Shown: one piece after another, positions 11,201 to 63,205 of the stretch | How the letters are laid out: each line of letters begins with the position of its first letter | How positions within the stretch are numbered: the stretch's first letter is position 1 | Assembly: GCF_964213995.1 (NCBI RefSeq) | Contig: NC_135830.1 | Coordinates: 12,834,001-12,898,000 of the forward strand | From: Mustelus asterias | Lineage: Eukaryota | DNA: 64,000 nt | Direction: 5' to 3' | Translations under genes and position numbers: made by a program | Notes under the pieces: model-generated | Told to the model about the DNA's origin: nothing | Seen by the model: the letters and a program-made list of their open reading frames with translations, nothing else | Databases searched by the model: none

Positions 11201-11239
11201 TACCCTAACACAGTCCTGAGAACCTGTGTTATTTATTGT

Positions 11240-33094: not shown

Positions 33095-33140
33095 CGACAA
33101 TGAGTATCCCAAACACAATCCAGACTCTGAATACTTTCAT
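33095..33140 (-). CDS. Leader exon of intact TCR V-alpha/delta gene (MKVFRVWIVFGILIV)
   Basis: GCCATG start, 46 nt, phase-1 donor G|GTAAGG, 90-nt intron. Confidence 0.9.
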
Positions 33141-34869: not shown

Positions 34870-35168
34870 ATTCCAGCTGATCCGTGTAACCCAGTTCAAT
34901 TCTCCAATCCTCTGCCGCAGGTGACAAGGTTACCTTAAGCTGTGAATATTCAGGGAACTGTCAGCATTCTGGTACTGTCAGTCCCCAGGACAGGCTCTGA
35001 AATACTTGCTTCGGACACACACTTCGGGAGAGGGGAAGAAAAAAAATGCTGCCGGGTACAGAATTTCTGTTTATACCCATTCTTCAGTCAAAATCTGCAA
35101 GTTCGAAATCTCCAAACGACAACTGAGCGACTCTGCTGTGTATTACTGTGAACTGAGTGGACGTACGG
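34870..35168 (+). pseudogene. Leaderless TCR V-delta pseudogene resembling the NAR-TCR supporting V
   Basis: Acceptor CCTGCAG; RVTQFNSPI..AGDKVTLSCEYSGNCQH/FWYCQSPGQALKYLLRTHTSGE...QLSDSAVYYCELS; extra Cys in CDR1; frameshifts; no hydrophobic leader exon visible upstream. Confidence 0.75.
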
Positions 35169-35351
35169 CACAGTGACACAAAACACGGAGTGAGCTGTAC
35201 AAAAACCTGGACATGGTGAGGATTACTGCCACAGTGATACAGAACACGGAGAGAGCTGTACAAACATCTGAACATGGTGCGGATTACAGACACAATGATA
35301 CAGAACACGGAGAGAGCTGTACAAAAACCTGCTCATGGTGAGGATTACAGA
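35169..35351 (+). repeat. Three tandem 61-bp units, each a 23-RSS
   Basis: Heptamers at 35169 (CACAGTG), 35230 (CACAGTG), 35291 (CACAATG); nonamers at 35199 (ACAAAAACC), 35260 (ACAAACATC), 35321 (ACAAAAACC). Confidence 0.95.
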
Positions 35352-41279: not shown

Positions 41280-42365
41280 TAAGAACATAATAAGAACATA
41301 CAAACTAGGAGCAGGAGTAGGCCATCTGGCCCCTGGAGCCTGCTCCGCCATCCTTTAAGATCGTGGCTGATGTTTCTGTGGACTCAGCTCCACTTACCCG
41401 CCCGCTCACCATAACCCTTATTTCCTTTGCTGTTCAAAAATGTATCTATCTTTGCCTTCAAAACATTAAATGAGGTAGCCTCAACTGCTTCACTGGGCAG
41501 GGAATTCCATAGATTCACAACCCTTTGTGTGAAGAAGTCCCTCCGCAGCTCAGTCCTAAATCGGCCTCCCCTTATTTTGAAGCTATGCCCCTAGTTCTAG
41601 TTTCATCTGCCAGTGGAAAGAATTTCCCTGCTTCTATCCTTTCTATTCCCTTCATAATCTTATAAGTTTCCATAACATCTCCCCTCATTCTTCTGAATTC
41701 AAAAGACTATAGCCACGGTCTACTGAGTCTCTCATCATAAGCCAACCCTCTCAGCTCCGGAATCAACCTAGTGAATCTCCTCTGCACCCCGTCCAGTGCC
41801 AGTATATCCTTTCGCAAGTAAGGAGACCAAAACTGTACACAGTACCCCAGGTATGTCCTCGCCAGCACCTTATACAGCTGCAACATAATCTCACTGTTTT
41901 TAAACTCCATCCCTCTCGCAATGTAGGTCAAAATTCCATTTGCCTTCTTAATTACCTGCTGCACCTGCAGACCAACTCCTTGAGATTCTGCACAAGGACA
42001 CCCCTGTCCCTCTGCACAGCAGCATGCTGCAATTTTTTACTGTTTAATAATAGTCCATTTTGCTGTTATTCCTACCAAAATGGATGACCTCACATTTACC
42101 AACATTGTACTCCATCTGCCAGACCCTCACCCACTTACTTAGATTACCTATATCCTTTGCAGACTTTCAGCGTCCCCCGCACACTTTGCTCTTCCACCCA
42201 TCTTAGTGTCATCTGCGAATTTTGACACACTGCATTTGGTCCCCAACTCCAAACCATCTATGTAAATCGTAAACAATTGCGGTCACAATGCTGATCCCTA
42301 AGGCACACCGCTAGTCACTGATCGCCAACCAGTTACCCCCACTCTTTGCTTTCTGTTAGTTAACC
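41280..42365 (-). mobile_element. CR1 LINE 3' part, right arm only
   Basis: ORF 41707..41964; CATAAGAA tail; absent at ~18500. Confidence 0.9.
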
Positions 42366-43648
42366 ATAGAATCATAGAATCGCTAGAGTGCAGAAATAGG
42401 CCATTCCGCCCATCGAGCCTGCACCATCAACAATCCCACCCAGGCCCTATCCCCGTAACCACATGTATTTACCATGCTAGCCGTCCTGACATTAAGGGAC
42501 AATTAAGAATAGCCAATCAACCTAGCCCGCACATCTTTGGACTGTAGGAAGAAACAGGAGCGCCCAGAGGAAACCCACACAGACATGGGGAGAACATACA
42601 AACTCCACACAGACAGTTAGCCAAGGCCAGAATTGAACTCGGATCTCTGGTGCTGTGAGGCAGCAGTGCTAATCACTGTGCCACTGTGCCACCCAAAATA
42701 GAGAGGGAGGAGCCGAACTCCAGGCCACAGATTTTGGAGATGAGCATTTTTAGGCATAATGTTATTGAAGGCTGCTTGTAGTCAATAAGTAGGAGTCTGA
42801 TGTAAGTGTCCTTGTTGTCCAGTAGTTCCAGGGTTACGTGTAAGTCCAGGGAGCTTGTTTCTGCTCTGGACCTGTCCCAGCGATAGGCGAACTGTCACAT
42901 ATTCAGGCAATCTGGGAGACCGGAATTGATGTGTGCCACGAATCACTTTTTGAAGCATTTCATAATGATGCATGTCAGAGCTACCGGGCGATGGTCATTA
43001 AGGCACGGTGGCAAGCTTTTCGTTGATGTTCGGCTTCTTGAAGCAGGTAAGGAACTCAGGTCAGTGTAAGGAGAGGCTAAAGGCGCCTGCAAATTCGCCC
43101 TCCAGCTGGTCCATGCAGGATCTGAGTGCCCATCCGGGTACCCAGTTCATTTCCATGGGTTAACACACATGAACCAGTAAGGAGAATAAATGTTTAAGTG
43201 ATTTGTTTGCCCATGAGGCGTAAATTATGGACCATTGCAGTCGTTGAAGTCAGGTGGTTTCCAGTGGATTTGTGGAGATGATCTTGTTCAGATCTGCACA
43301 ACTTTCAAGACATTATGCCTTGTTTGCCTTGGTTATGCACTTTTTGATGAAACACTTTTTGCTTCCAGCAAGAGAGGTGATTGGTCCTGTTCTTTCTCAG
43401 TAAGGTCTTTGATGATTATCACGAACTTTCTTCCTCCTGATCCCTTTGCTTTGCTTTCCAGAGTATATTTCCGAAAAGGAATTTAATTGCCATCCCTTTC
43501 AGTCACTGTTATCCTAATCTGAGTTTCTGACCTTTTATTTCAGAAAGCTTTTCATCACCAGCAATTCCTGGCATTGTGTTATTGAATGTCGTAAAATGAA
43601 TATGTAATCTATGAATGAAACAGATTGACACCCACATCTTGGCTGCTG

Positions 43649-44559
43649 TCAGTTGTTTTCTTTATTATTCAATCGAATAATAAATGTGACCAGGTATTTC
43701 AATGCCCTCTTGAACTGTTGTCTGAACTTGGACTGAGTCACCCCGTATATAAATGTATTTGTGCAGCAATTTAATGTCCGCAGCATAAACCCAAATTCTC
43801 CAAAGATATATAAGGAATTGTTGTAATTATTGGGATCTATTCCCGAAAAGGTATAATATAGAAAATCTACAAAATATGTTAACCACAGAAGGATGAATGT
43901 GCCGGATATGGTGAAGAGTAAAATCATCGACTTCCTTCTGCTTTGAATTTCCTGGTCAGGTTGATTCTCTTCTCTCCTCTGACCCCTCAGTCCTTTACGG
44001 AGTCGACTGGCCACTAAAACATATCTGACTGTCAGAGTATTGAGCAATAGAATTAAAGGGAATGGAAGCAAAGGTGTTAAAACTTTATCAAGCCAGTCCA
44101 ATCCAACCCATCCAGGCTCGGTATAATAACTTGGAGCATCATTGCAGAACCACGGTACATTATTTATTACCTCTCCAGGTTCAAATGTGAAGTAGAAGGG
44201 AACATTTTTCAAACAGAGCATGACGGAGGTGGATGCTAGAACCACAGCTGCAGTTTTCTCAGTGCAATATTTTTCTTTCAGCTTCTGACAGCAAATTGCA
44301 ACAAAGCGATCAAAGGAAAAAGTGATGGTGAACCAGACGGAGCAGTCTGTGGCTGCATTAGTCAGGACGTGGATAGTCCTGCAAATCGGGGTGATGTCCA
44401 GGAAAGATCTTAGGAAGTAATAAGAACTGATCTCTAACAATATGACATGAGTGACAATGACCAGTAGATCTGCGACTGCCATGGCCACCAGGTAACGAGT
44501 GGTGCATTTGGAGAGTCCGCACTTCCCTCTGGACAGGATCAGAATGGACACTAAATTAA
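43649..44559 (-). CDS. Exon 2 of intact GPR139/GPR142-like orphan class A GPCR (spliced product 325 aa)
   Basis: Acceptor TTGTTATAG; 911 nt open to TGA. Motifs ILSRGKCGLSKC, LVAMAVADLL (TM2), FSFDRFVAIC (DRY-like), FILLW (TM6), NCCTNTFIY (TM7). 67+911=978 nt. Confidence 0.92.
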
Positions 44560-47429
44560 CTATAACAAAGGAGGGAAATGCATTAAAATTATTTATCGAA
44601 AATTTTTCACCCAAAACGCAGCCAGCCCGGGCTATATTGCAGCAGCAACAATGAATGCGTCGGTATCTGAAAGGTGTGCTGGTTAGGTGCATTGACCAGA
44701 ACAGGCACCCGAATGTGGCGACTAAGAGAATTTCAAAGTAACTTCATTGCAGCGCTAATGTAAGCCTTACTTGTGACTAATATATAAACTTTACTTTATT
44801 TTCTGTTCACACTTTGAAGAACGCTTAACATGACCACTCTTTGCTTCCAACTTGTTCACTTCCACGTTCATCATATCCGGGACAATCACAAAGCAGCAGA
44901 TATCACAGGACGTGTCTCAGCTTGGTAAATGTTTCAACCACGCCAGTAGCCTCTGGCTGAATCTTGCTAGCTTGTTTTCTCTTGGCATATCAGAATTACC
45001 GAGCCTCAGGAATTCTGGATGACAAGACGACGGGATGGCGGAGTATTTCCAAATAAACAATTGCTTTTACTGAACTGCTTATTAGCTAGCATCAACAAGA
45101 ATATTTCCACTGCCTCTTAAAACTATGAACTCCAGATTTTCCTCAGGCAAATTTACCCGCATTGGGAGACTGGACGACATTCTGGGTCCGTTTTGAGTTG
45201 CTGGATTAGACCTCCTTGGTACTGCAGCCCGTTTCGCTGCCCTTAATCACTGAACTGAAGCCTAACGTCTCAGTTCAGTGACATAAACAGAAAATACTGG
45301 AAAATCTCCGGTAGCGTCTGTGGAGAAAGAACTGAACGCTGACAAATGTCATCCATACTCGAAACGTTGGCTCCGTTCCCTCTCCACAAACGCTGTCCGA
45401 CCTGCTGGATTTTTTCGGAATTTTCTGTTTTGGGTTCAAATTCCAGCATTCACAGTATTTTGCTTTTCTCCCAGTTCGGTGACCTTGCGTGCAGCGGACC
45501 TGCAGGGACAAACATGGCACAGGTGGATTTACAACTATACAGCTTGTGTTGAGATTTTGGCGACTGAAGCTCTGAAAAATGTTCATCCACCGCCTCCCTC
45601 CCAACCCCTCCGTAAACTATCCCTAGTGAAATAAATCCTGGTATCAATCCAAGGACAAAATTGAGAAATTGGGACAATTGTACCAAAAAAGTAGACAATA
45701 CTGAAATCTGTAAAAAGGCCAGGCAGCATCTGTGAACAGGGAAAGAATGGTAACGTCTTACCTCGAAAATCATTCATAATAAATGGACGATATGATACAT
45801 GAGCAAGCTTAAAACAAAGATTGGGAAGTTTTGTGGTGCAGTGTTGGTGCCCTTGTCTCAGAGGCTGGGCTTCAAGTTCCAAACTTGAAACCAAGACCTA
45901 ATGGTCATAAAGTCATAGATTCAATATGTTTACAGTGTGGAAGCAGGCTCTTCTGTCCAACTTGCCCATGCCGCCCCTTTTTTGACGTCTAAGCAAATCC
46001 CAATTGACCGCATTTGGCCCATATCCCTCAATATCCATCTCACCCATGTAAGTTTCTAAATGCTTTTAAAAGACAAAATTGTACCCGCCTGTACTACTTC
46101 TTCAGACAACTTGTTCCAGACACTCACCAACCTCTGTGTGAAACAAATGCCCCTCTAGACTCTTTTGTTCTCTCCTCTCTCACCTTAAAGCTTATGTCCT
46201 CTAGTTTTAGACTCCCCTACCATTCGGAAAAAATGTTGACTATCGAGCTTATCTAGGCCCCTCATTATTTATATAGACCTCTACAAGATCACCACTAAGC
46301 CTCCCACGCACCAGCGAAAAAAGTCCCAGTCTATTGAAACTCTCTTTATAACTCAAACCATCAAGTCCCGGTAGCACCGTAGCAAATCTCTTCCGAACTC
46401 TCTCTAGTTTATTAATATCCGTTCTACAATCGGGTGGCCAAACTGTGCGTTGTATTCCAAGTGTGGCCTGACCAATGTCTTGTGCAACTTCAACAAGACG
46501 TCCCAACTCCTGTATTCAATGTTCTGACCAATGGAACCAAGCATGCCGAATGCCTTCTTCACCACTCTGTCCACCTGTGACTCAATTTTCAAGGAGCTAT
46601 GAACCTGTACCCCTAGATCTCTTTGTTATTTCACTCTCCCCAACGCCATACCATTAACTGAGTAAGTCCTGCTCTGGTTTGATCTACCAAAATACATCAA
46701 CTCGCATTTATCTAAATTAAACTCCATCTGCCATTCGTCAGCCCACTGGCCCAATTGATCAAGATCCCGTTGCAATCCTAGATAACCTTCTTCACTGTCC
46801 ACTATGCCACTAATCTTGGTGTCATCTGCAAACTTACTAACTGTGCCTCCTATATTCTCATCCAAGTCATTACTATAAATAACAAATAACGGTGGACCCA
46901 GAACAGATACCTGAGGCACACCGCTGGTCACAGGCCTCCAGTTTGAAAAACAACCCTCCACAGCTACCCTCTGTCTTTTGTCATCAAGGCAATTGTGTAT
47001 CTATTTGGCTACCTCACCCTGTATCCTGTGAGATTTAATCTTATGCAACAACCTACCATGTGGTGCCTTGTCAAAGGCCTTGCTAAATTCCATGTATGCA
47101 ACATCAACTGCACTGCCCTCATCTACCTTCTTGATTACCCCTTCAAAAAACTCACTCAAGGAGTTGAGTTAATGGAACAGCCAAACACACTGACCAAATC
47201 CTTCAAAACTATGAAAATGATAGGTGGTAAGTTTAGCAATAATTCCTGGTCAGCCATGTGATGTAAATGGAAATAGACACCTATCTTCTCCATTCCATAC
47301 ATCGAGTCTCAAAATGCATGTGAAAGTGAATATTACCACAGTAATGTAGGCTCGTTGAGGAGCTGATTTCGGTACTTGGCCAGTTTGGATCAGATTGGTG
47401 TCAGCAGCACGGGGTTCGTTCATCATTCA

Positions 47430-47772
47430 TAGATAGATCATAGATAGCCTACAGTGAAGAAAGAGGCCATTTGGCCCATCGATTCTGCACTGACCACGCT
47501 CCCACCCAGGCCCTACCCCCATATCCGTACATATCTATCCACTAATCCCTCTAACTACACATCTCAGGACACTCGGGGCAATTTTTGCATGGCCAACCAA
47601 CCTAACCCGCACATCTTTGGACTGTGGGAGGAAACCGGAGCACCCGAAGGAAACCCAGGCAGACATGAGGAGAATGTGCAAACACCACACAGACAGTGAC
47701 CTAAGCCGGGAATCGAACCCAGGTCCCTGAAGCTGTAAAGCAGCAGTGCTAACCACTGTGCTACCGTGCCGG
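47430..47772 (-). mobile_element. HE1 SINE, right arm only
   Basis: Typical SINE; empty site at ~13405. Confidence 0.9.
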
Positions 47773-49223
47773 CTGAGATGAATTCGGGACGTGCCTCCTT
47801 GACCTAGCCGTGGTTAAGATGTTGGCGTTGTGGTTCAGACCTACCTTTCGCTAGTGAACTGAAAAGGAAAACAATGTGAGTGGAGTAGGAGACCTGGCTA
47901 TAGCGGGAGGAAAGAAAATGGACGAAGATGATGCGATGATTTGAAAGTCAGGAATCATTTAGTAATGAAAGTGATACAAGGTGAAAGAGAGAATTAAAGA
48001 ATGGAGAGATGGTCCCAAGGAGGGCCAATCTTCTACAAAAAAACAGAGCGCCAGACGGAAAGTTCGAAAGGAATTGTCAGAAATGTGACACAGATATACG
48101 TGGGGTAACGACCAGAGAATACAGGGTGCATCAATCGGAGATCCCCAGCAAAAATACCAATCCTACTCCCACACTTGCAGTCTCTCTCGTGCACCCATCT
48201 TCCAGTCGAAGCGTATGTTTTTCTGCGATATCTGAGCGATGGCCATGATGCCCAACATAATTTGATCTCATTGTTAACTCTGGCAGGTAAAAAAGATAAA
48301 TCTCGCGTTGCTGCATTCTCTCTCCACAGATACTGTCAGACCTGCTGAGATTTTCCAGCAATTTCCGAAGGGATTACGGAGACACCTTAACCACAGAGTG
48401 GTGAGAATGTGGATGTCGCGAACATTTAATGAGAAGATATATAAGGTAATTAAGCAGAAAAGAAAAACGCAGAAGCTTAAACACAGATAGTCTTGGGTGA
48501 AGCTAAAGGGTGTTTAGCAAGACAATAAGCATAAACCAACTGTCCTGTATTATTTTTGAAATTCAATGTAACATGTTTGGTGATACATCAGAATGATTTG
48601 CCCTTTCATAATATTACAGATATCTTTGAAACATGGTAAATAAGGGCAGGAGTTCAGTTCGGCAAGGTTATTCGACTATTCAAATAGATCATAGTAGATC
48701 CTGCATCCACTGTGCCATTCCGCCCATTATCCCCATATACCTCATATAATTAGTATCCGGAGGTACGTTGAATTCTGTTTTTAACATGGTCAGTCATTAA
48801 GCTTCCACTGACCTCTTGGGTAAAAGAGTTCCAAATAGGAATTAACTTTGTTGATTTGTAAATTTATTAAGTCGTTAAAGTCTTTGCTGTGTATCAATGT
48901 TTTTAGTTACTGTCGCTGAACAGATCACTGCATTAGCAGAACTGGAAATGGATATCCCTCAGTTGCGTAGATAACTCTTTGCAGCTCTATATGTAAGTGA
49001 AATAATGCTGATGTAGACACCGAGTCATATGTAGCCCGGTTTCTGATAAAGTTACCAGTTAAACAGTGGAATAAAATAACTTCAACATTCACCGTGTTTA
49101 AGAGCAAGATAATAATAAAGAAAAAAAACAGAACTCATGAGAGATCTGGACAGTATCCAGCTTGGACTGACAAGTGGCAAATAACATTCGTACCACAGAA
49201 ATGCCAGGCAATGGTCATTCAGT

Positions 49224-50375
49224 AAGGCATTTGACAAAGTCCCACATGGCAGGTTGGTTAAGAAGCTTAAGGCTCATGGGATACAAGGAGAAGGGGCTAG
49301 ATGGGTGGAGAACTGGATTGGCCATAGGAGACAGAGGGTTGTGGTCAAAGGGTCTTTTTCCGGCTGGAGGTCTGTGACCAGTGGTGCTCCGCAGGGCTCT
49401 GTACTGGGGCCTCTGCTATTTGTGATATATATAAATGATTTGGAAGAAGATGTAACTGGTGTAATCAGCAAGTTTGCGGATGACACGAAGATGGCTGGAC
49501 TTGCGGATAGCGAAGAGCATTGTCGGGCAATACAGCAGGATATAGATAGGCTGGAAAATTGGGCGGAGAGGTGGCAGATGGAGTTTAATCCGGATAAATG
49601 CGAAGTGATGCATTTTGGAAGAAATAATGTAGGGAGGAATTATACAATAAATGGCAGAGTCATCAGGAGTATAGAAACACAGAGTGCAAGTCCACAAATC
49701 CTTGAAGATGGCAACACAGGTGGAGAAGGTGGTGAAGAAGGCATATGGTATGCTTGCCTTTATAGGATGGGGTATAGAGTATAAAAGCTGGAGTCTGATG
49801 ATGCAGCTGCATAGTACGCTGGTTAGGCCACATTTGGAGTACTGCGTCCAGTTCTGGTCGCCGCACTACCAGACGGACGTGGAGGCGTTCGAGAGAGTGC
49901 AGAGAAGGTTTACCAGGATGTTGCCTGGTATGGAGGGTCTTAGCTATGAGGAGAGATTGGGTAAACTGGGGTTGTTCTCCCTGGAAAGACGGAGAATGAG
50001 GGGAGATCTAATAGAGGTGTACAAGATTATGAAGGGTATAGATAGGGTGAACAGTGGGAAGCTTTTTCCCAGGTCGGAGGTGACGATCACGAGGGGTCAC
50101 GGGCTCAAGGTGAGAGGGGCGAAGTATAACGTAGATATCAGAGGGACGTTTTTTACACAGAGGGTGGTGGTGGTGGGGGCCTGGAATGCGCTGCCAAGTA
50201 GGGTGGTGGAGGCAGGCACGCTGACATCGTTTAAGACTTACCTGGATAGTCACATGAGCAGCCTGGGAATGGAGGGATACAAACGATTTGTCTAGTTGGG
50301 CCAATGAGCGGCACAGGCTTGGAGGGCCGAAGGGCCTGTTTCCTGTGCTGTACTGTTCTTTGTTCTTTGTTCTTG
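49224..50375 (+). mobile_element. CR1 LINE 3' part, right arm only
   Basis: ORFs 49254..49784 and 49684..50295; empty site at ~11965. Confidence 0.93.
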
Positions 50376-52295
50376 TTCATCACCAATAGGAGATACGCTA
50401 ACAGCCGCCCCTTGACATTCATTAGCGTTCCCATCAGTGAATGCCCCAGTGTCAACATCCTTAGGGTTGTCCTTGATCAGAAATTCAATTATATTTGCCA
50501 CATAAACACAGTGGCTTCAAGAGCAAGTCAGAGCCGAGGAATATTGCAGTGAGTAACTCACCTCCTGCCTCCCCAAAACCTGTCCACCATCTACAAGGCA
50601 CAAGTCAGGGGTGTGATGGAACAGTAGCCACATATCTGGATGGGTGCAGCTCCAAGAACAGTCAAGAAGCTTGATCCCATCCAGGAAAAAACAGCCCACT
50701 TGACTGGCACCACGTCCACAAATATCCACGCCCTCCACCATCGACGCTCACTGGTAGCAGTGTCCACTTTCTACAAGATGCACTGAAGCAATTCACCGAA
50801 CATCCTTATACAGCACCTCCGAACACACGACCACTTCCTCCTAGAAGGACAAGGAAAGAGGATTCATGGGAAACCGTCACCTGCAAGTCCTCCTCCAAGC
50901 CACTCACCATACTGACTTGGAAATGTGTCACTGTTCCTTCGCAGTCGCTGGCTCAAAATCCTGAAATTCCTTCCCTAACGGCATGGATCAACCCACAGAA
51001 CATGGATCGCAGCGTTTCAAGAAGGCAGCTCGCCACCATCTTCTCAAGGTCATCTAGTGATGGGAAATAAATGCTCGCGACACCGATGTCCCACGAATGC
51101 ATAATAAATAACACAGGTTCTCGGGACTGTGTTAGGGCAGGGGGATCCATCAGCGCCAGAAGACACGGGCAATATAAATATCTATTGCAAGCAATGTCAT
51201 TATTCACTGAATTTGAATACCACTCTCCCAATTACCTTTTAGTAAACTTGAATCTCGGATGGGGCAGTTCCGTGTGAAACGGGACAATATCATTGCCTTT
51301 CACTCGTTCGACTTATGACCAAATATCAACCAGCAGCAAAATATCTTCACTTTTTACAATCAAATAACTTCAGGGAAGCATGAAAGGAGCCCCATGCAGT
51401 TAGGAGAGTAGCCAGGTAATAGAATAATTGCAAAATAGGACCGGCTTGTTCCACCCCATTTTGAAGCTGATGTTCAGCAAAATTAAAATTGAAAGTATTG
51501 TGTGGCCACTGGGATCAGTCGTTAATCTTCGATTCCAGATGGAGAGTCACTGTAATAACAAATGAGAGATACTCTCAGGTACACTCTGGTACTCTCAGGT
51601 CTCTGGTTTCAGCTTTTCTAATCAGTTTGGCGACCCACAGTCAGTAAACTTCTGCATGAACGGATGGATACTCCGAGTAATACCGGGCAATCGGACCACT
51701 TCTTCCACTCTGCTTAATGACACATACTTCATGCCACATGTTCCATGTAATACATCTTTTCCGAGTGACATGTTCCAATCTGCTAGCTACCCAATTTAGT
51801 GGAATTCTGCTCTGACAAACACATGTAAGGATACATTGACACTGGTGCCTGTGCTTTTCTTCCGCCAGTGCCCGAGACTAGGTGCGTACTACAGCGATGG
51901 AAAGTTTCATTTAGACATGCTCTCTGGAGCAAATTGTTTAACTTCAGTTATTGACCCAAACTCAGTCAGTATAAACACTGAATTATACTTCCAAATGTTT
52001 TCAGGCTTTCCTCTCTGCTTAATGACCCAGACTTGTTAAACTTCTTTAATTGCAGACACCCCCACTAATATCTTGGATGAGACAGGCAACTGCACTGCTG
52101 TCTGGTTGAACGGCATACCATGTTCCTCTAGAAGCAGAACATTGCTAATTCAGCGAGCCTTGGAGATAGACGGACTGGCATTACATAAAATGGATAATTC
52201 TGGACTTCTGACCGAACTATCTGCTATTAGTAATCGGGCGTCCGTATAAGATATCACTCCAGATTTGGACAGCTACAGTGGTTATTGTTACTTAC

Positions 52296-52362
52296 CAGGA
52301 ATACCAACGACAGCAAGGAACGTGTAGTACCATTTCTTGATCATGGAAAAAGGTTCCATCAT
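52296..52362 (-). CDS. Exon 1 of intact GPR139/GPR142-like GPCR (MMEPFSMIKKWYYTFLAVVGIP)
   Basis: ATG at 52362, 67 nt, phase-1 donor G|GTAAGT. It supplies the N-terminal half of TM1 and joins in frame to exon 2 (GIP-V-NLVS, giving the TM1 GxxxN motif). Confidence 0.8.
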
Positions 52363-52696
52363 TTTCAATGGGGAGAGTTCTGCCGCTCCGTCTTTAAGGC
52401 AGTCTCTCAGAAATAAAATTCGAGGGATCACAACCGCGTATTTTTATGGCCGCTGCGATCTCAGTGGGGATGTGGGTTTTGCAACATTTAACAAACAAAT
52501 TAAGACAGGGAATTAATTCCCTGTTGAAACAGGATACATTTAGTTTTGAGTTTGAAATGAAGAACCCCAAGGACCAGGCAGTTCTGAGCGCATTAATTAA
52601 CAAATGAAAATTCGAAGCTGTAATCATCCAGGAATGAGATATTCTTTCTGCAAACGCTATCAGGTCAACGTCTAGACTTCATGTCCGTTCGTCTTG

Positions 52697-53330
52697 CATA
52701 CCCAGGGACCTGGGTGTGCAAGTCCACAGACCCTTGAAGGTGACGTCACAGGTGGAGAAGGTGGTGAAGCAGGCATATGGCATGCTTGCCTTTATAGGAC
52801 GGGGCATAGAGTATAAAAGTTGGGGTCGCCACACTACCAGAAGGACGTGGAGGCTTTGGAGAGGAAACAGAGGAGGTTTAACAGGATGTTGCCTGGTATG
52901 GAGGGGCTTAGTTATGAGGAGAGATTGGGCAAACTGGGGTTGTTCTCCCTGGAAAGACGGAGGATGAGGGGAGACTTAATAGAGGTGTATAAAATTATGA
53001 CAGGCATAGATATGGTGAACGGTGGGAAGCTTTTCCCCAGGTCGGTGGTGACGTTCACGAGGGGTCATAGGTTCAAGGTGAAGGGGGGAGGTTTAACACA
53101 GATATCAGAAGGACATATTTTACACAGAGGGTGGTGGGGGCCTGGAATGCGCTGCCAGGCAAGGTGGTGGAGGCGGACACACTGGGAACGTTTAAGACTT
53201 ATCTAGATAGCCACATGAACGGAGTGGGAATGGCGGGATACAAAAGAATGGTCTAGTTTGGACCAGGGAGCGGCACGGGCTTGGAGGGCAGAAGGGCCTG
53301 TTTCTGCGCTGTATTGTTCTTTGTTCTTTG
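52697..53330 (+). mobile_element. CR1 3' fragment upstream of GPCR exon 1, right arm only
   Basis: ORFs 52716..52967 and 52820..53206; TTCTTTG tail; empty site at ~8200. Confidence 0.9.
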
Positions 53331-54659
53331 TCAACAGTGACCATTCTGTAACTAACTTTCAACTTCTGAAGGAAATTTCTGTCATGTCTGCTTCCCTTAA
53401 CTGTGAACATCCAGTTTAAACTATCTGAGCGTGAACTCAGTCCCTCAGTGAACACAGTGAATGTTTTCAGATATAATATCCAGTGACCTGCAAGTGTCTT
53501 GACGAGCTTTCTTCTTACCCCGTAGTGCAGTACACTGTCTGGGCTGATTGAATGGCGCAGGATGGTGTTAGAGCTCCGCTGTTCCTACTATTACCATTTT
53601 GCTAAGTTTAAACTGGACGCCTCAGCAAAGGGAAGCGGTTAGTGGGATTGCCGGTGGCTATGTTGCCAACGGCTCTTTCCCTATAATTTCACGTTGACAA
53701 AAGCGATCATTGCGCTTCTGTTGCGATATCTAAAAAATAATAAACTTTTCGGGCAGAAGGCAGAGTTCTTTTTTAAAATATTCATTCATGGCATGTGGGC
53801 GTGCCCATTCCTGAGGGCATTTAAGGGTCAACCACATTGTTATGGCTCTGGAGTTACATCCAGGTCGAGGCAAGGAATGCACATTTGCTTCTCTAAGGAA
53901 CATCAGTGTATCAGAACGGTTTTCACCACAATCAACAACGGTTTCATGATCATCATTAGTCTTTTGATTGCAAGTAATGAATTCAAATTTCACCATCTGC
54001 CGTGTGGTTTGCGAAACCCAATTCTCAGAATATTCTGCTGTGCCTCTGGATTACTAGTCCAGCTGCAATATCACTACGCCACCACCATAAAGTTGCGAGG
54101 GTAACCACAAACAAGTGCAAATAATTATCAAATAAGAACCAGGGCTGTGATCACATCATTGCAGGGAAATAACATACAGCTGATTGTGCACACCTTCTTT
54201 GTTTATCAATGGTTTTCAGTCAATCCCATGCTCCAAGCATTCCCAGGACCCCTGGAAAATAACCCATTCGTTCCTTCACCGTCCCTTCCGGCAAACCCCT
54301 ACTCCCGACTTCAAAACTCCCATTTAAACGCAGAAGATATAACAGCTGCCGTTTAGACCATTAGGCATTAAAATATAGGAGCAGAAGTAGGCCATTCGGC
54401 CCATTGAGCCTGCTCCACCATTCGACCATGACTGATACGTTTCTCTATCCCATTCTCCCGCCCTTTGCTCATAACCTTTGATCCAATTACCAACCAAGAA
54501 CCTATCTATCTCGGTGTTAAATACACTCAATTACCTGTCTTCCACAGCCTCCTGTGGCAATGAGATCCACAGATTCTTCCTTCACTTTTTTCCCTGCACT
54601 TGTTTCCTACACATTTGGAACGTAGCTGTGAGGCCCAATGGGGCGCGATGCTGTCACTT

Positions 54660-54731
54660 GTTTCTGTAATGTAGTGGTTACCAAGTTCGCCTAACGTGTG
54701 AGAGAGCCCCGGTTCAAACCGGGCAACAACA
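54660..54731 (+). pseudogene. tRNA-Val(AAC) pseudogene
   Basis: GTTTCTGTAATGTAGTGGTTACCAAGTTCGCCTAACGTGTGAGAGAGCCCCGGTTCAAACCGGGCAAC; mirror of the 6815 copy. Confidence 0.8.
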
Positions 54732-56987
54732 TTACTTCAGATTTCACAAGTAGTGTGAGGGAAATCTATATGATTTCAGTTTGTTGCTGAACATTTTCCG
54801 CATCTCGATGTAACAGCTGTACTATCTTTGCTCTGACCTCGGCCTCAAAAGCTTTCTATTCAATTGGAAGTGGTGATTTCTTTGACGCACTGACAGGAAA
54901 GAAACGTTTATACTTTGACAACATGCACACATAAATTTTCATTTTATTTGATTTATTATTTTCACATGTATTAGCATACAGTGAAAAGTATTGTTTCCAA
55001 CGCACTATACCGACAAAGCACATCGTTCATAGAGAAGCAAACGAGAGAGTGCAGAACGTAATATCTCGTTCAGTGTGCAACAGAAATTAATGGGGCTATA
55101 GGTACAGACTAACATAGTTAATCACCATCTGAAACATCTCTAAATCTAGTGTGTGCTGAAAAATACTGGCACTGTAAGTGAACAAGAGGAAATGGCACAC
55201 ATTTTCCAGAAGAATCTTTTTTTTAAAAATCGTTCTTCATAACAAACAAATGGGAAAAAACACTCAGACTCAGACTCAGTGCAGATCCACTGGACTTTCC
55301 GATAGGTCGGCGGAAATTAGGCAAGGAATGTTTCACACAGAATAAAAAAAGTTCAAGTATAACGAATGGATAATACGTCTCACAACACCAGGTTAAAGTC
55401 GAACAGGTTTATTTGTAGCACAAGCATCCGGAGCGCTGCTCCTTCATCAATCCAACACCGGCATCTCCACATAATGGATAATACTTAAATCTCTTCCATT
55501 TAAAAAATGTTGACTTTGTTTAAAAGCAGCTATGGTCAATCTCAAATAAGCACCACGGGATCTGTATTACCAGGTGACTCGATTCCTTTTGTTGGTCAGT
55601 TATGTTTACAATTTAGTGATATTCAATTTCAGAGATATTGAATACACAATAAGGACATGTGTTAAATAATGTATTGCATTAAATATTGAACAACGAAACA
55701 AATACTAAGTACAATTGGTTGAGATTATTCGAAGGAAGTTGACAATGATGCGTTACTGACTGAGTAGAAATCATTGCTCCCTTAGACATCTGCCAGGCGA
55801 ACGCTTTTAAATTTTGAATTTCAAGGTAAGTTTAGAAATCAGGTTGCAAGTAACGGTTTTCTTCTTGAATTAAACGAAACGGGTTCTCAGTCTAACCAAT
55901 GGAACCTGCAGCATCACAGCGCAGTTGAACATTACGGGCAAGCCGATTAGTTGATCATCTGTTGGATCATTCTCACTAAGCGTGACCGAAGTCTGCATGA
56001 TTTAAGTTCATTACTCTACATTTGGCGAATCTCGATGTTTATTTAACTCAAATGTTTTTAGGAAAATCAGATCTTACATTAACTCAAATGCTTTCAGCAA
56101 AATCAGAAATGCTATATTTAGGACGCAATGGCAGGAAATAAATGTTTTTTCAGTTTGTACGCATATTTGCAACTCGTTCAGTCCAGAACTGAATTTGGCG
56201 TGTTTACAGATGCAGACTAACATATTTAATCACCATCTGAAACATGTCTGATCGTATTGCGTGCTCGTAAAGATAGACACAAGTGAAACTGTAACTGGAT
56301 TAGAGGAAATGGCGCACATTTCCCAGAAGCACCTTTTTAAAATTGATTTTCATGATAAAGAAACAGGACAAACCACTCAGGCAGATGTGGAAATCGAGAA
56401 TCAGTGCGGACTTGCTGGACTTTCTATAGCTGAACGAGATTTGGGCGCCTGGATGTTTCTCACACGGAATAAAGAGGGATCAAGAATAACGAACAGATCA
56501 TTCTAAATCTCTTCCCAAAGACATTTGATTTCGTTGCAAAGATGATTGTGGTCAATCTCAAATAAGCACCATAGCATGTGTATTATCCAATGGTTCGATC
56601 CGTTTTGTTGGTCAGTCATGTTTGCAATTCAATGTTGTATATTTCAGAGATATTCATTACAAAATGACGACATGTGTTAAAAAATGTATTGATATTAAAT
56701 GCTGAATAATGACAAATACTGGATATAACTGGTTGAACTTATTCGACCAAAGATGAAAATGATGCATTAATGATTGAGCAGAAGTCATTGCTCCCTTCGA
56801 CATTTGCCGTACGAACGTTTTTTTTTAAATTTTGAAGTACAAGGTAAGTTGAGATATCAGGTTGAAAGTAACGGATGTGTTCTTGTAATTAGTGACAAGG
56901 GGTCTCAATCTGACCATTAGAACCTGCATGAACACAATGGAGTTGAACATTGTAGTCAAGCCAATTGGCGGTTTTGCAATGTTAGCT

Positions 56988-57053
56988 GTTTCTGGATTGT
57001 AGCGGTTATCACGTTCGCCTAACAAGTGACAAGTCCGAGACCGGGCAGAAACA
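56988..57053 (+). pseudogene. tRNA-Val(AAC) pseudogene
   Basis: Mirror of the 4440 copy, with the same T-arm deletion. Confidence 0.8.
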
Positions 57054-58050
57054 TTCATTAAGCTTTCTCATGTAGGGTGAGGAAGACCTGGATGATTTCA
57101 GTTCGTCGCTGAGCATTATCCGAATCTCAATGTTACAGCCATAGTTTCTTTGCTCTGACCTCGGCCTCCAATACTTTCTGTAAAATAAGAAAAGCCTAAA
57201 TTTTTGACGCACTCAGGGGAAAAAAAAACGTTTCAGTGTACAACAGAATTTAATGGGTTTATAGATGCAGACTAACATAGTTAATCACCATCTGAAACAT
57301 GTCTAATAGTAGAGTGTGATCAAAAAGGCAGACACAAGTGATATTGTAAGTGAACTAGAGAAAATGGCGCACATTTCCTAGAAGAATTATTTTTAAAATC
57401 GTTTTTCGTAACAAAGAAATTGGAAAAAACACTCAGACAGAAGAGGAAATCGAGACACAGTGCGGATCAACTGGACTTTCCTATTGATGGGCAGATTTCA
57501 TACGTCTGAATGTTTCACACCCATAATTTTTTAAAAATGCTCAAGTATAATTAACAGGTAATTCTTCAACCCCTTCTCTTTAAAAATAGTTGACTTTGTT
57601 TAAAAGCTGACTATGCTCAATCTCAAGTATGCACCATAGGATCTGTATTACCCAGTGACTCGATTTCTTTTGTTGGTCAGTTATGTTTCCAATTCAGTAA
57701 TATTCATTTTCAGAGATATTCAATTCATAATGAGGACATTTGTGTTAAATAATGTATTGATATTAAATATTGAATGACGAAACAAATAATGAGTATAATT
57801 GGTTCAGGTTATTCGAAGGAAGATCAGAATGATGCATTAATGAATCAGCAGAAATCATTGCTCTCTTAGAAATTTGCCAGACGAATGCTTTTACATTTTG
57901 AAGATCAAGATAAGTTGAGAAATGAGGCTGAAAGTGACGGTTTTCTTCTTGAATTAATTGACATGGGCTCTCAGTCGAACCATTGGACCCTGCAGCAACA
58001 GAGCGCAGTTGAACATTGCAGACAGGCCGATTAGCTGCAGAGAGCTTTCA

Positions 58051-58123
58051 GTTTCTGTAGCCTAGTGGTTATTACATTCGCCTCACACACGGTAAGACCC
58101 CGGTTTGAAACCGGGCGGAAGCA
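58051..58123 (+). tRNA. tRNA-Val(CAC), degenerate, probable pseudogene
   Basis: GTTTCTGTAGCCTAGTGGTTATTACATTCGCCTCACACACGGTAAGACCCCGGTTTGAAACCGGGCGGAAGCA followed by ATTTT. Confidence 0.85.
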
Positions 58124-58173
58124 ATTTTGGATCCTTCTCGTTAAGCTTGAGCGAAGTCTGCATGATTTAATAA

Positions 58174-58212
58174 AGCTTTGACAAGGAGTCATCTGGACTC
58201 GAAACGTCAGCT
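58174..58212 (+). ncRNA. Hammerhead-like motif with U3:A8 variant core
   Basis: AGCT-TTGACAA-G-GAGTC-ATCTG-GACTC-GAAA-CGTC-AGCT: stems I and II pair, palindromic ACGT stem III, GUC triplet. Confidence 0.6.
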
Positions 58213-59220
58213 CTTTTCTCTCCTTACAGATGCTGCCAGACCTGCTGAGACTTTCCAGCATTTTCTCTTTTAGTTTCTGCATGATTCAACATTCAGCGAA
58301 CCAACTTAAATGCTTTTAGGAAAATCAGATCTTACATCAACTCAAATGCTTTGAGGACAATCAAAAATGCTGCATTTTAGGACGCTGTGGCAGCAAATAA
58401 ATGTTTGTATGGTTTGCACACATACTCGCAACTCGTTCAGTCCACAACAGAATTTAATGGGTTTATAGCTGCAGGCTAAGATATCTAATCACCATCTGAA
58501 ACATGTCTGATAGGATGGCCTCCTCATGAAGACAAACAGAAGTGAAACTGTAATTGAATTGCAGGTAATTTCTCAGAAGCATCATTTTTAAAATTGTTCT
58601 TCATGATAAACAAATAGGATACAAACACTCAGGCAGATGAGGAAATTGCGGATCAGTGCGGACCTGCTAGACTGCCGATAGATGAACGAGATTTAGACGC
58701 CAGAATGTTTTACATACAGAATGAAGAAGGATCAAGTATAAATAACAGATCATTCATAAATTTCTTCCCTTGGAAGATCTTTGAATTTTTAACAAAATAT
58801 GGTCATTTTCAAATAAGTACCATAGGATGTGTATTACCCAGTGAATCGATTTATTTTGATGGTCAGTTATGTTTGCAATTCAATATTTTATATTTCAGAG
58901 ATATTCAATTCAGAATGAGGACATCTCATTAAATAAATGCATTGATATTAAATGTTGAATAACGAACCAATACTGGATGTAACTGGTTGAAATTATTGGA
59001 CGGAAGATAAGAATGATGCATTAATGATTGAGCAGAAATCATTGCTCCCTTCGACATTTGCCAGCCGATCGTTTTTTTTAATTTTGAAGTACAAGATAAA
59101 TTGAGACGTCAGGTTCAAAGTAACAGATGTGTTTTTGCATTGAGTGACATGGGCCCTCAAACGAACCATGCGGACCGGCAGCAACACAGTGGAGTTGAAC
59201 ATTGTAGGAAGGCCGATTGG

Positions 59221-59570
59221 CGGCGCTATGCTGCACGGTAGCACAGTGGTTAGCACTGCTGCTTCACAGCTCCAGGGACGTGGGTTCGATTTCCGGCTTG
59301 GGTCACTGTCTGTGTGGAGTTTGCACATTCTCCTCGTGTCTGCGTGGGTTTCCTCCGGGTGCTCCGGTTTCCTCCCACAGTCCAAAGGTGTGCGGGTTAG
59401 GTTAATTGGCCATGCTAAAAATAAATTGCCCTTCGTGTCCTGAGATGCGTAGGTTAGAGGGATTAGTGAGTAAATATGTGGAGGTAGGGCCTGGGTGGGA
59501 TTGTGATCGGTGCAGACTCGATGGGCCGAATGGCCTCTTTCTGTACTGTAGGGTTTCTATGATTTCTATG
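59221..59570 (+). mobile_element. HE1 SINE at the 5' end of a tRNA-Val copy
   Basis: GCACGGTAGCACAGTGGTTAGCACTGCTGC head to TTTCTATGATTTCTATG tail. Confidence 0.9.
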
Positions 59571-59572
59571 AC

Positions 59573-59631
59573 TTGGTTATCACATTTACCTAATACGCAG
59601 GCGGTTCCCGGTTCCGAATAAGGAGGGAACA
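59573..59631 (+). pseudogene. 3' part of a tRNA-Val pseudogene whose 5' end is replaced by an HE1 SINE
   Basis: TGGTTATCACATTTACCTAATACGC...CCCGGTTCCGAA..GGGAACA in type-B unit flanks, immediately after the SINE tail. Confidence 0.7.
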
Positions 59632-60045
59632 TTCATTTAGCTTTTTCATGTAGGGTGAGAGGAATCTGTCTGATTTCAGTTTGTTGGCGGACATTATCTG
59701 AATCTCGATGTTGCAACCATATTATCTTTGCTCAGAATCCGGCCTCACATGTTTTCTCCAAAATCAGAAATGCTGAATTTGATGACGCAAAATTGTGTAA
59801 ATTCTCCCAGACATTTTGGATTATGAACAAAACGTATTTGAGATTAACATTTACTTAATGAAATTCTTTGAGTAGAATTTAACTTAAAATAGCCAGTTTC
59901 TGTTGAAAAGCAATTAGCTGACATAAATTTCTCCAGAGAAGCTGACTGAAGTTCGTCAGCATCTGTCTGAAGAGGTCGAAAGTTATTGCAGACGTTTTTT
60001 ATCGAAAGTAACACGCAATTTGTGAACTTATTTTAAGTTTTACAC

Positions 60046-60118
60046 TGAACCAGCCAGGAGTAGAACATGGAACCTACTGATCTATATTGAGAGGCGTTAC
60101 CTATTGCGCTACTGGCCC
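60046..60118 (-). pseudogene. tRNA-Arg(ACG)-derived pseudogene
   Basis: Reverse complement GGGCCAGTAGCGCAATAGGTAACGCCTCTCAATATAGATCAGTAGGTTCCATGTTCTACTCCTGGCTGGTTCA, 73 nt; anticodon arm mutated. Confidence 0.8.
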
Positions 60119-61768
60119 ACACGCGACCTCGTGGAAGATGTTACATATTGGTCCAATGTTCGAAATCAGGCGCAATTTTTTTAAAATTCTGCGTTCACTT
60201 GTGAGGAAAAGTTTCATCATTGAGATTATCTTTATTCATTTACAATCATCCCTAATTGCCCTTGAATTGAATTGCTGAGTTAACCTGCCGTGTGGGAATT
60301 CAACCTGCTGTCTAAATACAGTAAGATTACCCAATCACTCACTGCTCCCCTCAGTGAATCAACTATCGAATATTACTTGAACATAATATTTTATACACAT
60401 GTGCCATTAGCTTTTACATATGCCTCAACATGTATTCAGAACAAAGAAATAGAAGTGTTGAAAATTCTCTCCACACTGAGCAGGAAAAGAAATGTTCTTA
60501 TTTTGACTCAGCACACATATTATCAGTTCGTGCAGTGTCTTCAAGAGCAGGTCAGAGGCTGGGAATCCTGCAGCGAGTAACTCATCTGACTCCCCACAAC
60601 CTGTCCACCATCTACAAGGCACAAGTCGGGAGTGTCAGTGAATACTCCCCACTTATTTGGATGATGCAGGAACTCACCAAATAAACTCAAGACAGCTGTT
60701 TTCAAATCCAAGACCGCAATCACCTGTAAGCTCCCCTCAAGGCAATCAACGACCTTTACTTGGAAATATAATGACCAGGAAAATCAACCCCTGCCCCTTC
60801 ACGAACAGCACTATGGATGTACCTACACCAATACACTGTACTGCTCAAGAAGGCAGCTAACCACCACCTTCGCAAGGATAATTAGTGATGGGTAATAAAT
60901 GCAGGCCCAGCCAGTGACACTCACATCTCGTGAATGAATAAAAAGAAAAATCCGGCCAGCTGCCTGAACGGGCAACTAATGGATCCCTTGAACAGGTGAA
61001 TGGTGACAAACTGAATGTCCCCTGGCAAGTCAACCCTTTTGAAAATGTTTTTCTCGTGAGGGTGTTGCGCTGATGGATTCCCTGCAGTTTGTGCTCAGGA
61101 TTTCAAACCAGACCACATATTATCCAATCCTGCCGTCAGTACCTGAAAGAAATGTACAAAACCTGCGGATGAGGCAACAAACATCAAACAGTTCGGCCGG
61201 TATGTGAACCCTAGACTTGTCGCATACTTTGACCTCAAATACCCAAAGCCAGAATCGTTCCACTCGACCAACGAGGCTACACTTGCAGTACTTCCACCAA
61301 AATCTGACTGATTTGTGTGGATCCAAAGCAACTCAGAAATCTCTTTAAAAGCCAAAATCGTTGAAAGGACGCCGGGAATTGAACCTGTCAGTATTTGAGG
61401 GCTGAGCCGGAAGCACGTCAGCATTTGAGGACTGAAAGCACCAAGAAAATATCCGCCCATGAAAGCTAACTCGACTGTTTGGAACTGGGCGCTTCTGTGT
61501 ATAAAATACACATATTACCCTTTACACTGCAGAAAGGATGCGGAGCGCTAAGGTGAACGAACGGGAATATTTGCAGCATAGCAACAGCAATACCGACTTC
61601 GACAACTCATAACAATATATCTCATGAAAGAATATAAGTTTGCTATCAATGCTAATATAATATTCCCATTTCGATATTTTTTTAAAAATTACATTTTCTC
61701 AATATTGTTGCTGGTCGCGGTTGTGAGTCTGGAATTCGCGCCTACACGGAACCCGACACGGTATCCCA

Positions 61769-61784
61769 CTGTCCTCTGGTGGCC
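61769..61784 (-). promoter_or_regulatory. Candidate CTCF site upstream of a V fragment
   Basis: GGCCACCAGAGGACAG, one mismatch from CCACCAGAGGGCAG. Confidence 0.4.
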
Positions 61785-61864
61785 GCGGCATGGAATTACA
61801 AAGTGCAGCTTTCTCCCACCGATGACACTTCAGGACTCAAGCTTGTGTTCAACAATTTCCGATC

Positions 61865-62080
61865 ATGAATTCTACCACGATATTTTTAATGCCCTTTATT
61901 CATATTGTAGACCGCACCTGGGTTGGAGAATCTTTTTTGTTTTGATTCCACCTCCTCCAGACAAAGACAACCCTTTTCCAGATATGGATCATGGAGATTC
62001 TGTCACTCAACCGCTGTGCTCAGCAGTTCAGGCAGAAGGAGAAGCGGTGACTTTGCAATGCATCTATCACACGACATTTC
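61865..62080 (+). pseudogene. 3'-truncated TCR V fragment
   Basis: TTTTCCAG|DMDHGDSVTQPLCSAVQAEGEAVTLQCIYHTT (FR1 like the 32695 gene); possible leader MNSTTIFLMPFIHIV at 61865; no W41, YYC or RSS. Confidence 0.7.
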
Positions 62081-62675
62081 ACTTCCTGAAAAGGGAACAT
62101 TCTGAACAAATCAATTAATTCTCTTTAGTACCTTCTTGCTTCTGAACAAATGAAACCAAATTAGTCTGTTGATCACTGACGCTATTCTGTCTGATAGCTT
62201 CGCCAATTCGTCCGAAGACTTGGCGTTCTCTCGATTTCGTTGTCTCCAGGATTTGCGCAGAGAACTCCAACAATGACTTCCACAGATTTAGCATCGTTTT
62301 CCCAAATACATATCAACACTAACAAAGTCAGTATCTGAAGGGCTCCAATTTAGATTTCTGGAGAGCATTTTTATCTTTGTATATGTTACAGTAAACCCTG
62401 AATCAACTCAACAGGAAAATCCGAGCGTTCAATGAAAAACACTTCCCGACAGACGGCGCTAAATTCAAGCCCCAGTGTCACAAACGGAAACATGAATGGA
62501 TGGTAGGCTTGTGATGTCACAATAGACTGACCCACCCACTCCTCCCCACTGCACCCAGACGCACACACACACACGGACTCACTCACTGGAATCAGCTGAA
62601 CAGAGCACGGGTTCCCTCTTTCATGCTCAATCGCTGACTCATTCCATTCCCATTCACTGAGAGAGATAGTCAGAG

Positions 62676-63205
62676 ATGATTTTGGTCATGCTGACGGCGC
62701 TCTTGCACAGTAAGCACTGGATAATGTTCATCAAACCGGATAAACATATTGATGGCAACTTAATTAACAATCTAAAATATCCACGTGATGCGCAGAATGG
62801 AGGTTCCACAAACTATTGCAGATACAAACACATTTACGTTAACGCTTGATATTTCATTCTTCTGCCTTTACAGACGGACTGTGCGTAGATCCAGTAACTC
62901 AGTCACCGGTGACAATAACCGCATCAGAAAGGGGCTTTGGTGCAGTTACATTGTAATTATACAGACAAGGATATGCACAGCATGCAATGGTATCAGCAGA
63001 AACCGGCGCAACCACCGACATGAATTATTTCGAAAATATTAACAATGAAGGAAGATAAATTTCAGGACGATATCTGGCGATAGCTAGCAAGTCTAATCAG
63101 AACGGTTACCTTAATATCAGCCCCTTCAGTGTGGAGGACGTGTCTGTCTATTACTGTGCAATTAGGCACAACGTTAGATTACAGTTAAAACTCCGTAGAA
63201 AAACC
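62676..63205 (+). pseudogene. TCR V-alpha pseudogene (leader 62676-62709, V 62874-63166, RSS 63167-63205)
   Basis: MILVMLTALLH|GTAAGC; GLCVDPVTQSPVTITASE/GALVQLHCNYTDKDMHSMQWYQQKPAQPPT*IIF...EDVSVYYCAIR; CACAACG-23-AGAAAAACC; CRE-like TGATGTCA at ~62512. Confidence 0.9.

What the first reader, a model, noticed from the sequence alone, without database searches (positions are those of the whole stretch)
43649..52362. Intact two-exon orphan GPR139/142-like receptor embedded among TCR alpha/delta V genes
Seen: a 67-nt first exon missed by the ORF track splices over a 7.7-kb intron to a 911-nt exon, giving a complete 325-aa 7TM protein with a very short N-terminus, DRF, and a TM7 NTFIY in place of NPxxY. 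Known: mammalian TRA/TRD loci neighbour olfactory-receptor clusters, and GPR139/142 respond to aromatic amino acids. Inference: a shark-expanded, poorly characterised (chemosensory- or immune-type) GPCR family is interleaved with V genes, so V(D)J deletion could remove it somatically in some T cells.
Basis: partly seen in the sequence, partly recalled or inferred. Interest (0 to 1): 0.7.

Follow-up and report, generated by a model that had tools for sequence, protein, structure and literature searches.

The report
Shark receptor family inside immune locus
This intact shark cell-surface receptor gene is one of roughly 3,000 copies of a family that databases label GPR139 but that is a separate lineage and likely works as a varied set of sensors; it sits among T-cell-receptor gene pieces because the two were copied together, so T-cell gene rearrangement would remove it only as a likely bystander.

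Summary
The gene is real: two exons, 325 codons, a confidently predicted class A GPCR fold. It is not a GPR139/142 orthologue. Both exist elsewhere in this genome, and only 1 of 4 residues GPR139 needs for Trp/Phe is kept. It belongs to an elasmobranch family with 3,192 motif matches here (pseudogenes and haplotigs included), whose sister gene appears single-copy in amphibians. Pocket positions are hypervariable in the family and nearly invariant in amphibians, which suggests a receptor repertoire; pocket dN/dS stays below 1.

The gene lies in the shark antigen-receptor complex, 0.6 Mb past a TCR-delta cluster and 5.5 Mb before J-alpha. A ~22-kb inverted duplication copied it together with a V segment; the second copy is dead. 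One branch of the family is concentrated on this chromosome, but this gene's nearest paralogs lie elsewhere. V-to-J-alpha joining could delete it, most likely as a bystander. Expression is untested.

I found no paper describing the family. This scan has noted the family, the interleaving and the 19 TCR-delta constant exons before, on other DNA.

The parts
52296..52362 (-). Receptor exon 1 (start codon, short N-terminus, first half of TM1)
   Evidence: profile rank 1, E 1.8e-6
44560..52295 (-). Phase-1 GT-AG intron, 7,736 nt, carrying LINE-like fragments; same position as in shark GPR139, GPR142 and the C25 relative
43649..44559 (-). Receptor exon 2 (rest of TM1 to stop), open
8525..8590 (+). 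Exon 1 of the duplicate copy, one base shorter (frameshift)
16272..17182 (+). Exon 2 of the duplicate copy, 87% amino-acid identity, premature TGA in TM7: pseudogene
1..18503 (+). Left arm of the inverted duplication (continues about 4 kb before the window and there includes a V segment)
42365..64000 (-). Right arm of the inverted duplication (continues to window position 65,198 and ends in a truncated copy of that V segment); 86-90% identical to the left arm, with unaligned gaps
32656..33140 (-). Intact TCR alpha/delta-type V segment: split leader, V exon, 23-bp-spacer RSS
34900..35329 (+). Frameshifted V segment followed by three tandem 23-RSS (61-nt repeat); start approximate
22874..22912 (+). 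Perfect 23-RSS with no V exon in front (LINE-like sequence upstream)
61984..62085 (+). 5' fragment of a V segment
62676..63205 (+). Broken V segment (stops, frameshift) with degenerate 23-RSS

Best explanation
The gene is an intact member of a very large elasmobranch class A GPCR family, distinct from GPR139/142, that likely acts as a repertoire of sensors for diverse outside ligands, and it sits among TCR V segments because blocks of this chromosome were duplicated with both on board, so a V-to-J-alpha join would delete it only as a likely bystander. Shown: gene structure, family size, tree position, conserved signalling side with a variable pocket, purifying selection, co-duplication with a V segment, position relative to D/J/C. 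Inferred: that it is expressed; that ligands differ between copies and are peptides or small molecules (an ECL2 beta-hairpin and FMRFamide-receptor-like relatives favour peptides); that the role is chemical sensing; that loss in some T cells has no function.
For: Family size: 620 exact and 3,192 two-mismatch matches of a 29-nt motif, reversed control 0. The motif finds 48 of 51 sampled intact copies and 0 of 4 non-family receptor loci. Tree: family one clade (SH-aLRT 99), sister to salamander genes (99), apart from GPR139+GPR142 (100). The sister gene gives 20 amphibian clusters, each named from a different species, plus one from sturgeon. Entropy at 28 predefined pocket positions is 2.2 bits, against 1.5 for 45 other outer TM positions and 0.65 for 74 inner ones, in 134 family rows (p 0.001); in 20 amphibian rows the order reverses, 0.08 vs 0.45 (p 6e-5). 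In 15 independent paralog pairs dN/dS is 0.67 pocket, 0.47 other outer, 0.19 inner. Co-duplication: inverted arms, 86-90% identical, each carry a receptor copy and a copy of one V segment. The gene's nearest paralogs (69%) lie on other contigs, and 605 kb around family genes outside the window's region gave no V or Ig hit.
Against: No expression or ligand data. Pocket dN/dS is below 1, and per-partition codon models show no pocket excess over other outer positions (0.35-0.45 vs 0.43-0.52), so positive selection is not shown and relaxed constraint also fits. Only 8 of 14 loci in two contiguous stretches have an open exon 2. In catshark no GPCR was among the top 50 brain-plus-olfactory-epithelium genes (PMC11979771 passage). 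One branch is strongly concentrated on the antigen-receptor chromosome (95 of 132), which a functional tie would also predict. The entropy sample is unweighted, rich in close relatives of this gene, and may include proteins from this same assembly.
Confidence: 0.6

Rival explanations
1. The copies in the antigen-receptor complex are lymphocyte receptors kept there by shared regulation, and V(D)J deletion or inversion gives T-cell clones different receptor sets.
For: At least 48 family loci on C71 (union); a resident branch, 95 of 132 top hits on C71 or on contigs bearing V, IgH-C or TRDC hits; the gene lies between plus-strand V genes and J-alpha, and inside inversion intervals of minus-strand V genes to the 12.25-Mb D-J-C-delta cluster.
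Against: This gene is outside the resident branch (4 of 130); many large clusters lie on other contigs, and the DNA sampled around them has no V genes; deletion spans at least 5.5 Mb and IgH clusters; a nearer delta cluster could serve local V genes by inversion, which deletes nothing.
Confidence: 0.12
2. The family is mostly a by-product of duplication-prone DNA; copies are redundant, and pocket variability reflects relaxed constraint rather than new specificities.
For: About half of the loci are broken (8 of 14 open); pocket dN/dS is below 1; the window's own duplicate died.
Against: Whole-gene omega 0.32-0.37 and inner-side 0.16-0.19 across 51 copies; divergent subfamilies are shared between shark species; variation peaks at positions that are invariant in the amphibian gene.
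Confidence: 0.2
3. It is a GPR139/142-type sensor of aromatic amino acids.
For: GPR139 is the best human match by sequence (E 3e-11) and second by fold; shared intron position and loss of the TM7 proline.
Against: True GPR139 (534 bits vs 46) and GPR142 lie on C23 and C12; separate clade; F3x33, H5x43 and N7x38 are replaced by N, D and F, and only W6x48 is kept.
Confidence: 0.05

Closest known systems
GPR139 and GPR142 (human GPR139: PDB 7VUG, 9M42; PMC5430874 abstract; PMC7318219 passages)
   Same: Class A fold, two exons with the intron at the same TM1 position, TM7 without the NPxxY proline, W6.48; the source of the automatic database name.
   Different: Separate lineage; about 22% identity in the structural alignment; 3 of 4 ligand residues lost; P6.50 lost; longer ECL2 with a beta-hairpin; thousands of copies rather than one highly conserved gene.
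Elasmobranch antigen-receptor complex, AgRC (Flajnik et al. 2025, PMC12227049; read: parts 1-2 of 8, term search of the main text, Table S1 whole)
   Same: TCR alpha/delta V exons in both orientations between IgH miniclusters, on one chromosome with TCR constant genes.
   Different: The paper has no occurrence of GPR, GPCR or G protein in its main text and none of the four receptor terms in two supplement files; Table S1 labels one delta constant gene in stingray, whereas this assembly has 19 exons.
Birth-and-death sensory GPCR repertoires (OR, TAAR, V1R, V2R; MRGPR and FPR recalled)
   Same: Clustered expansion, many pseudogenes, variable pocket with a conserved signalling side.
   Different: Unrelated lineage (no OR model hit); no expression or ligand data; the catshark is reported to have 8 OR-type and about 35 V2R-type genes (PMC11979771 section 13).
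Single-copy amphibian and sturgeon 'probable GPR139' gene (e.g. XP_069092602.1)
   Same: Sister lineage (SH-aLRT 99), about 30% identity.
   Different: One cluster per named species, invariant pocket, D2.50 replaced by N; itself uncharacterised.

Membership tests
Class A (rhodopsin-like) GPCR | 7TM fold and 7tm_1 profile match | tested here: met
   PF00001 83 bits (cut-off 30.5); model pLDDT 87, pTM 0.85; all 50 listed fold matches are class A receptors
Class A (rhodopsin-like) GPCR | Core motifs D2.50, C3.25-ECL2 cysteine pair, DRx, P5.50, W6.48, Y7.53 | tested here: met
   98-100% conserved in 134 family rows; P6.50 and P7.50 absent
GPR139/GPR142 orthologues | Falls in the GPR139 or GPR142 clade | tested here: not met
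   GPR139+GPR142 form their own branch (100); true orthologues on C23 and C12. GPR142 is identified by motif and tree, not by a named match
GPR139/GPR142 orthologues | F3x33, H5x43, W6x48, N7x38 | tested here: not met
   1 of 4 kept; shark GPR139 and GPR142 keep 4 of 4
GPR139/GPR142 orthologues | Activation by L-Trp/L-Phe | not testable with these tools
   needs an assay
GPR139/142 superfamily (wider lineage) | Best human match GPR139; shared TM1 intron | tested here: met
Olfactory receptors (OR) | OR profile match | tested here: not met
   no OR model at E<=0.1
Chemosensory repertoire (functional class) | Large family with a variable pocket and conserved inner side | tested here: met
Chemosensory repertoire (functional class) | Positive selection at pocket sites | tested here: inconclusive
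   class averages 0.35-0.67, below 1; no site-wise model was run
Chemosensory repertoire (functional class) | Expression in sensory cells | not testable with these tools
Elasmobranch AgRC (location) | TCR alpha/delta V, IgH clusters and TCR constant genes on one chromosome | tested here: met
Elasmobranch AgRC (location) | PSMB5 and UrIg2 linked | not tested
   not searched

The most novel reading that the evidence does not exclude
Sharks, thought to be poor in GPCRs and odorant receptors, carry an unrecognised chemosensory receptor repertoire of a thousand or more intact genes, descended from one gene that stayed single in amphibians. In the boldest form (about 0.05), the copies threaded through the antigen-receptor complex are deleted or flipped clone by clone by V(D)J recombination and tune lymphocyte sensing.
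Probability: 0.35. Interest if true: 0.9.

Novelty: new variant of a known kind. Interest (0 to 1): 0.6.

Why it matters
A shark genome paper states a relative paucity of GPCRs in cartilaginous fishes (PMC8455134 passage), and another reports very small OR, TAAR and V1R sets in catshark. A family with about 3,000 motif copies, hidden under the name of a single-copy brain receptor, contradicts that picture and can be tested at once in existing RNA-seq. It also shows that the shark antigen-receptor complex is shared with many open non-immune genes, which bears on how far V segments there can recombine. The single gene and its possible somatic loss matter much less than the family.

Tried and rejected
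Sequencing runs: no RNA holder listed, so expression and the splice junction are untested, and no reads were laid. PF09291 found no TCR-alpha constant domain; TRAC was placed by its TM exon and J cluster instead. The amphioxus query did not list true GPR139 among 99 scored candidates; a motif pattern found it. The Atlas was searched with a homologue, P0002, not with the window protein. Whether the gene's closest relatives (Heterodontus P0002 and P0004, 76% and 75%) or the resident branch sit in the AgRC of other sharks could not be decided: only contig lengths were returned, and PMC7677710 passages gave no length for its IgNAR chromosome. The catshark supplement was unreadable and may hold tissue data on this family. 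Paper searches that found no description of the family: GPR139+shark+expansion; receptor name with shark terms (12); GPR139+cartilaginous fish (20); coupled receptor 139+shark (64); elasmobranch+genome+GPCR+gene family expansion+orphan (79, 0 papers); GPR142+shark (98). These were judged from listings, except PMC12294341 (passages). A search on passenger genes in TRA loci returned nothing; a search on duplicated shark TCR-delta returned no matching title (78). The library lacks most subscription papers. Rejected: olfactory receptor, GPR139 orthologue, chance exon 1, and TCR-delta joining as a cause of deletion (all three C71 delta clusters are on the plus strand and upstream of the gene).
Full report
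1. Observation. The window is G000:C71:12,834,001-12,898,000, on a 20.4-Mb contig of a 3.68-Gb genome; its homologues show it is a shark. Exon 1 (52362-52296) and exon 2 (44559-43649) have canonical GT/AG ends and join in frame to 325 codons with DRF and NTFIY. A profile of 13 homologue N-termini ranks exon 1 first in the window (E 1.8e-6). The model of exon 2 is a confident class A bundle with an ECL2 hairpin (pLDDT 87). The intron is longer than the 2.3-4.7 kb seen where exon 1 was found in 13 of 20 C8 loci. NTFIY is a family trait (T in 93% of rows), and GPR139 also lacks that proline.

2. Local anatomy. An inverted duplication pairs window -4,083..18,503 with 65,198..42,365 at 86-90% identity. 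The left arm holds a second receptor copy, broken by a one-base loss in exon 1 and a stop in TM7; dN/dS between the copies is 0.39. Each arm also holds a copy of the same V segment just outside the window. This directly shows receptor and V being copied as one block. In 264 kb there are 6 receptor loci (4 open) and 13 V segments or fragments in both orientations. Only 1 of 4 V segments in the window is intact; it is 61% identical to the V of a sawshark chain whose best solved matches are TCR delta. C108 repeats the window at 99.7-99.8%, so unplaced contigs inflate counts.

3. The chromosome. C71 carries V genes from at least 6.5 to 17.4 Mb on both strands and many C1 exons; the nearest are IgH-type (human mu and alpha among the best matches) at 12.51 and 13.14 Mb. 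TCR-delta constant genes lie at 7.14, 11.04 and 12.27 Mb, all on the plus strand and each with J segments. About 20 J-alpha segments and a TCR-alpha-like TM exon lie at 18.37-18.43 Mb. This matches the published AgRC, where alpha/delta V exons lie between IgH clusters (PMC12227049).

4. Can V(D)J remove the gene? By geometry (inferred): a plus-strand V below 12.877 Mb joined to J-alpha would delete it, along with at least 5.5 Mb and several IgH clusters. Such V genes exist, for example at 11.10, 12.33 and 12.47 Mb. Delta joining cannot delete it on this scaffold: the clusters are upstream, and minus-strand V genes beyond the gene would invert it. The window's intact V would invert 12.25-12.867 Mb, which stops short of the gene. 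Whether distant V genes reach J-alpha is untested, and scaffold order is uncertain, since no delta constant gene was found in the 128 kb before J-alpha.

5. The family. The gene's top 130 of 5,959 genomic candidates are all at least 61% identical; they lie on C8 (53), C16 (22), C85, C73, C5, C75 and others. A 29-nt motif has 620 exact and 3,192 two-mismatch matches, control 0. It detects 48 of 51 sampled intact copies and 0 of 4 other receptor loci; the 3,092 unlisted matches were not inspected. With 8 of 14 loci open in two stretches, a rough estimate is over a thousand intact genes before haplotigs are removed. Databases hold 2,170 relatives; the 120 listed are from sharks and almost all are named probable or putative GPR139; rays and skates also have members.

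6. What it is. True GPR139 (E 2e-159 to the human chain) and a GPR142-like gene lie on C23 and C12. In a 69-row tree (quick IQ-TREE, SH-aLRT only; the outgroup did not form one clean side) the family is one clade (99), sister to salamander genes (99), inside a group (97) with an anchovy gene and a single-copy lineage found in this shark, coelacanth and silverside; GPR139/142 stand apart (100). The sister gene gives 20 amphibian clusters, each named from a different species, and one sturgeon cluster. The window gene, GPR139, GPR142 and the C25 gene share the TM1 intron position. Of four residues needed for Trp/Phe activation (PMC5430874 abstract), the gene keeps one.

7. How it likely works. 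Variation peaks at pocket positions chosen in advance by helix numbering (recalled convention): 2.2 bits against 1.5 and 0.65, and the reverse in amphibians. Non-synonymous change is higher in the pocket than in other outer positions in 15 paralog pairs (pN 0.188 vs 0.136, Fisher p 7e-4) but below the synonymous rate (0.261); codon models per partition show no pocket excess. So the data show a conserved signalling core with a diversified pocket, as in sensory repertoires, but not positive selection. Look-alike clusters include FMRFamide-receptor-like proteins (a homologue's hits) and the fold matches are mostly peptide receptors, which favours peptide or peptide-like ligands (inferred). Tissue is unknown.

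8. Link to the immune locus. A neighbour at 12.99 Mb has 95 of 132 top hits on C71 or on contigs bearing V, IgH-C or TRDC hits, so one branch expanded in place. The finding's gene is outside that branch (4 of 130). Its closest known relatives are horn shark proteins (76%), closer than any paralog here apart from its duplicate (69%): an old, low-copy lineage. Outside the window's region, 605 kb around family genes gave no V or Ig hit. Shared duplication explains these facts without shared control; the immune rival stays open until expression is seen.

9. Novelty. Six paper searches found no description of the family, and the AgRC paper does not mention GPCRs. Unread supplements, notably the catshark atlas, may bear on this. 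Earlier notes of this scan reached similar readings on other DNA; they were consulted after my reading was formed and are not counted as support. Verdict: observation confirmed; interpretation partly supported; a new variant of a known kind; interest 0.6, carried by the family rather than by somatic deletion.

Noticed in passing
G000 C71:7.14, 11.04, 12.27 Mb and 16 unplaced contigs (L117-L132): 19 open TCR-delta constant exons, each with a TM exon, in at least 7 sequence groups (0-32 differences in about 300 nt); the three on C71 each have their own J segments and D-like elements. A multi-cluster TCR-delta layout; noted before by this scan.
   Followed up: partly
L044, C71:11,023,445-11,023,820: A V segment ends in a sequence and 23-RSS matching the 3' side of the D segment at 7.117 Mb: likely a germline-joined V-D in a TCR-delta cluster.
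   Followed up: no
L039, C71:12,240,615-12,240,980: An IgH-like V with 23-RSS lies about 8 kb upstream of a D-delta segment, a TAILV-like arrangement (IgH type judged by eye).
   Followed up: no
window 35169-35329; C71:12,229,725; C71:12,764,577: One V family carries two or three tandem 23-RSS as a 61-nt repeat.
   Followed up: no
L001/L114, C25:56.72 Mb: A separate single-copy two-exon receptor, 60% identical to a coelacanth protein and with a silverside relative, also labelled GPR139 in databases: another unnamed vertebrate lineage.
   Followed up: partly
P0239, P0292-P0310: The amphibian sister gene has N at 2.50 in all 20 rows and an invariant pocket; a simple model for finding the ancestral ligand.
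   Followed up: partly
window 25458-28903, minus strand: Broken frames with zinc-knuckle and reverse-transcriptase-like motifs suggest an LTR or endogenous retroviral element between the duplication arms (read by eye).
   Followed up: no
C71:18,245,001-18,373,000: No V segment or delta constant gene was detected in the 128 kb before the first J-alpha, unlike the stingray and catshark layouts in PMC12227049 Table S1; this may reflect scaffolding.
   Followed up: no
C8:1.3-1.9 Mb and 30-37 Mb; C22:52-53 Mb: Family clusters lie within about 0.3-4 Mb of other C1-domain gene clusters; enrichment was not tested.
   Followed up: no
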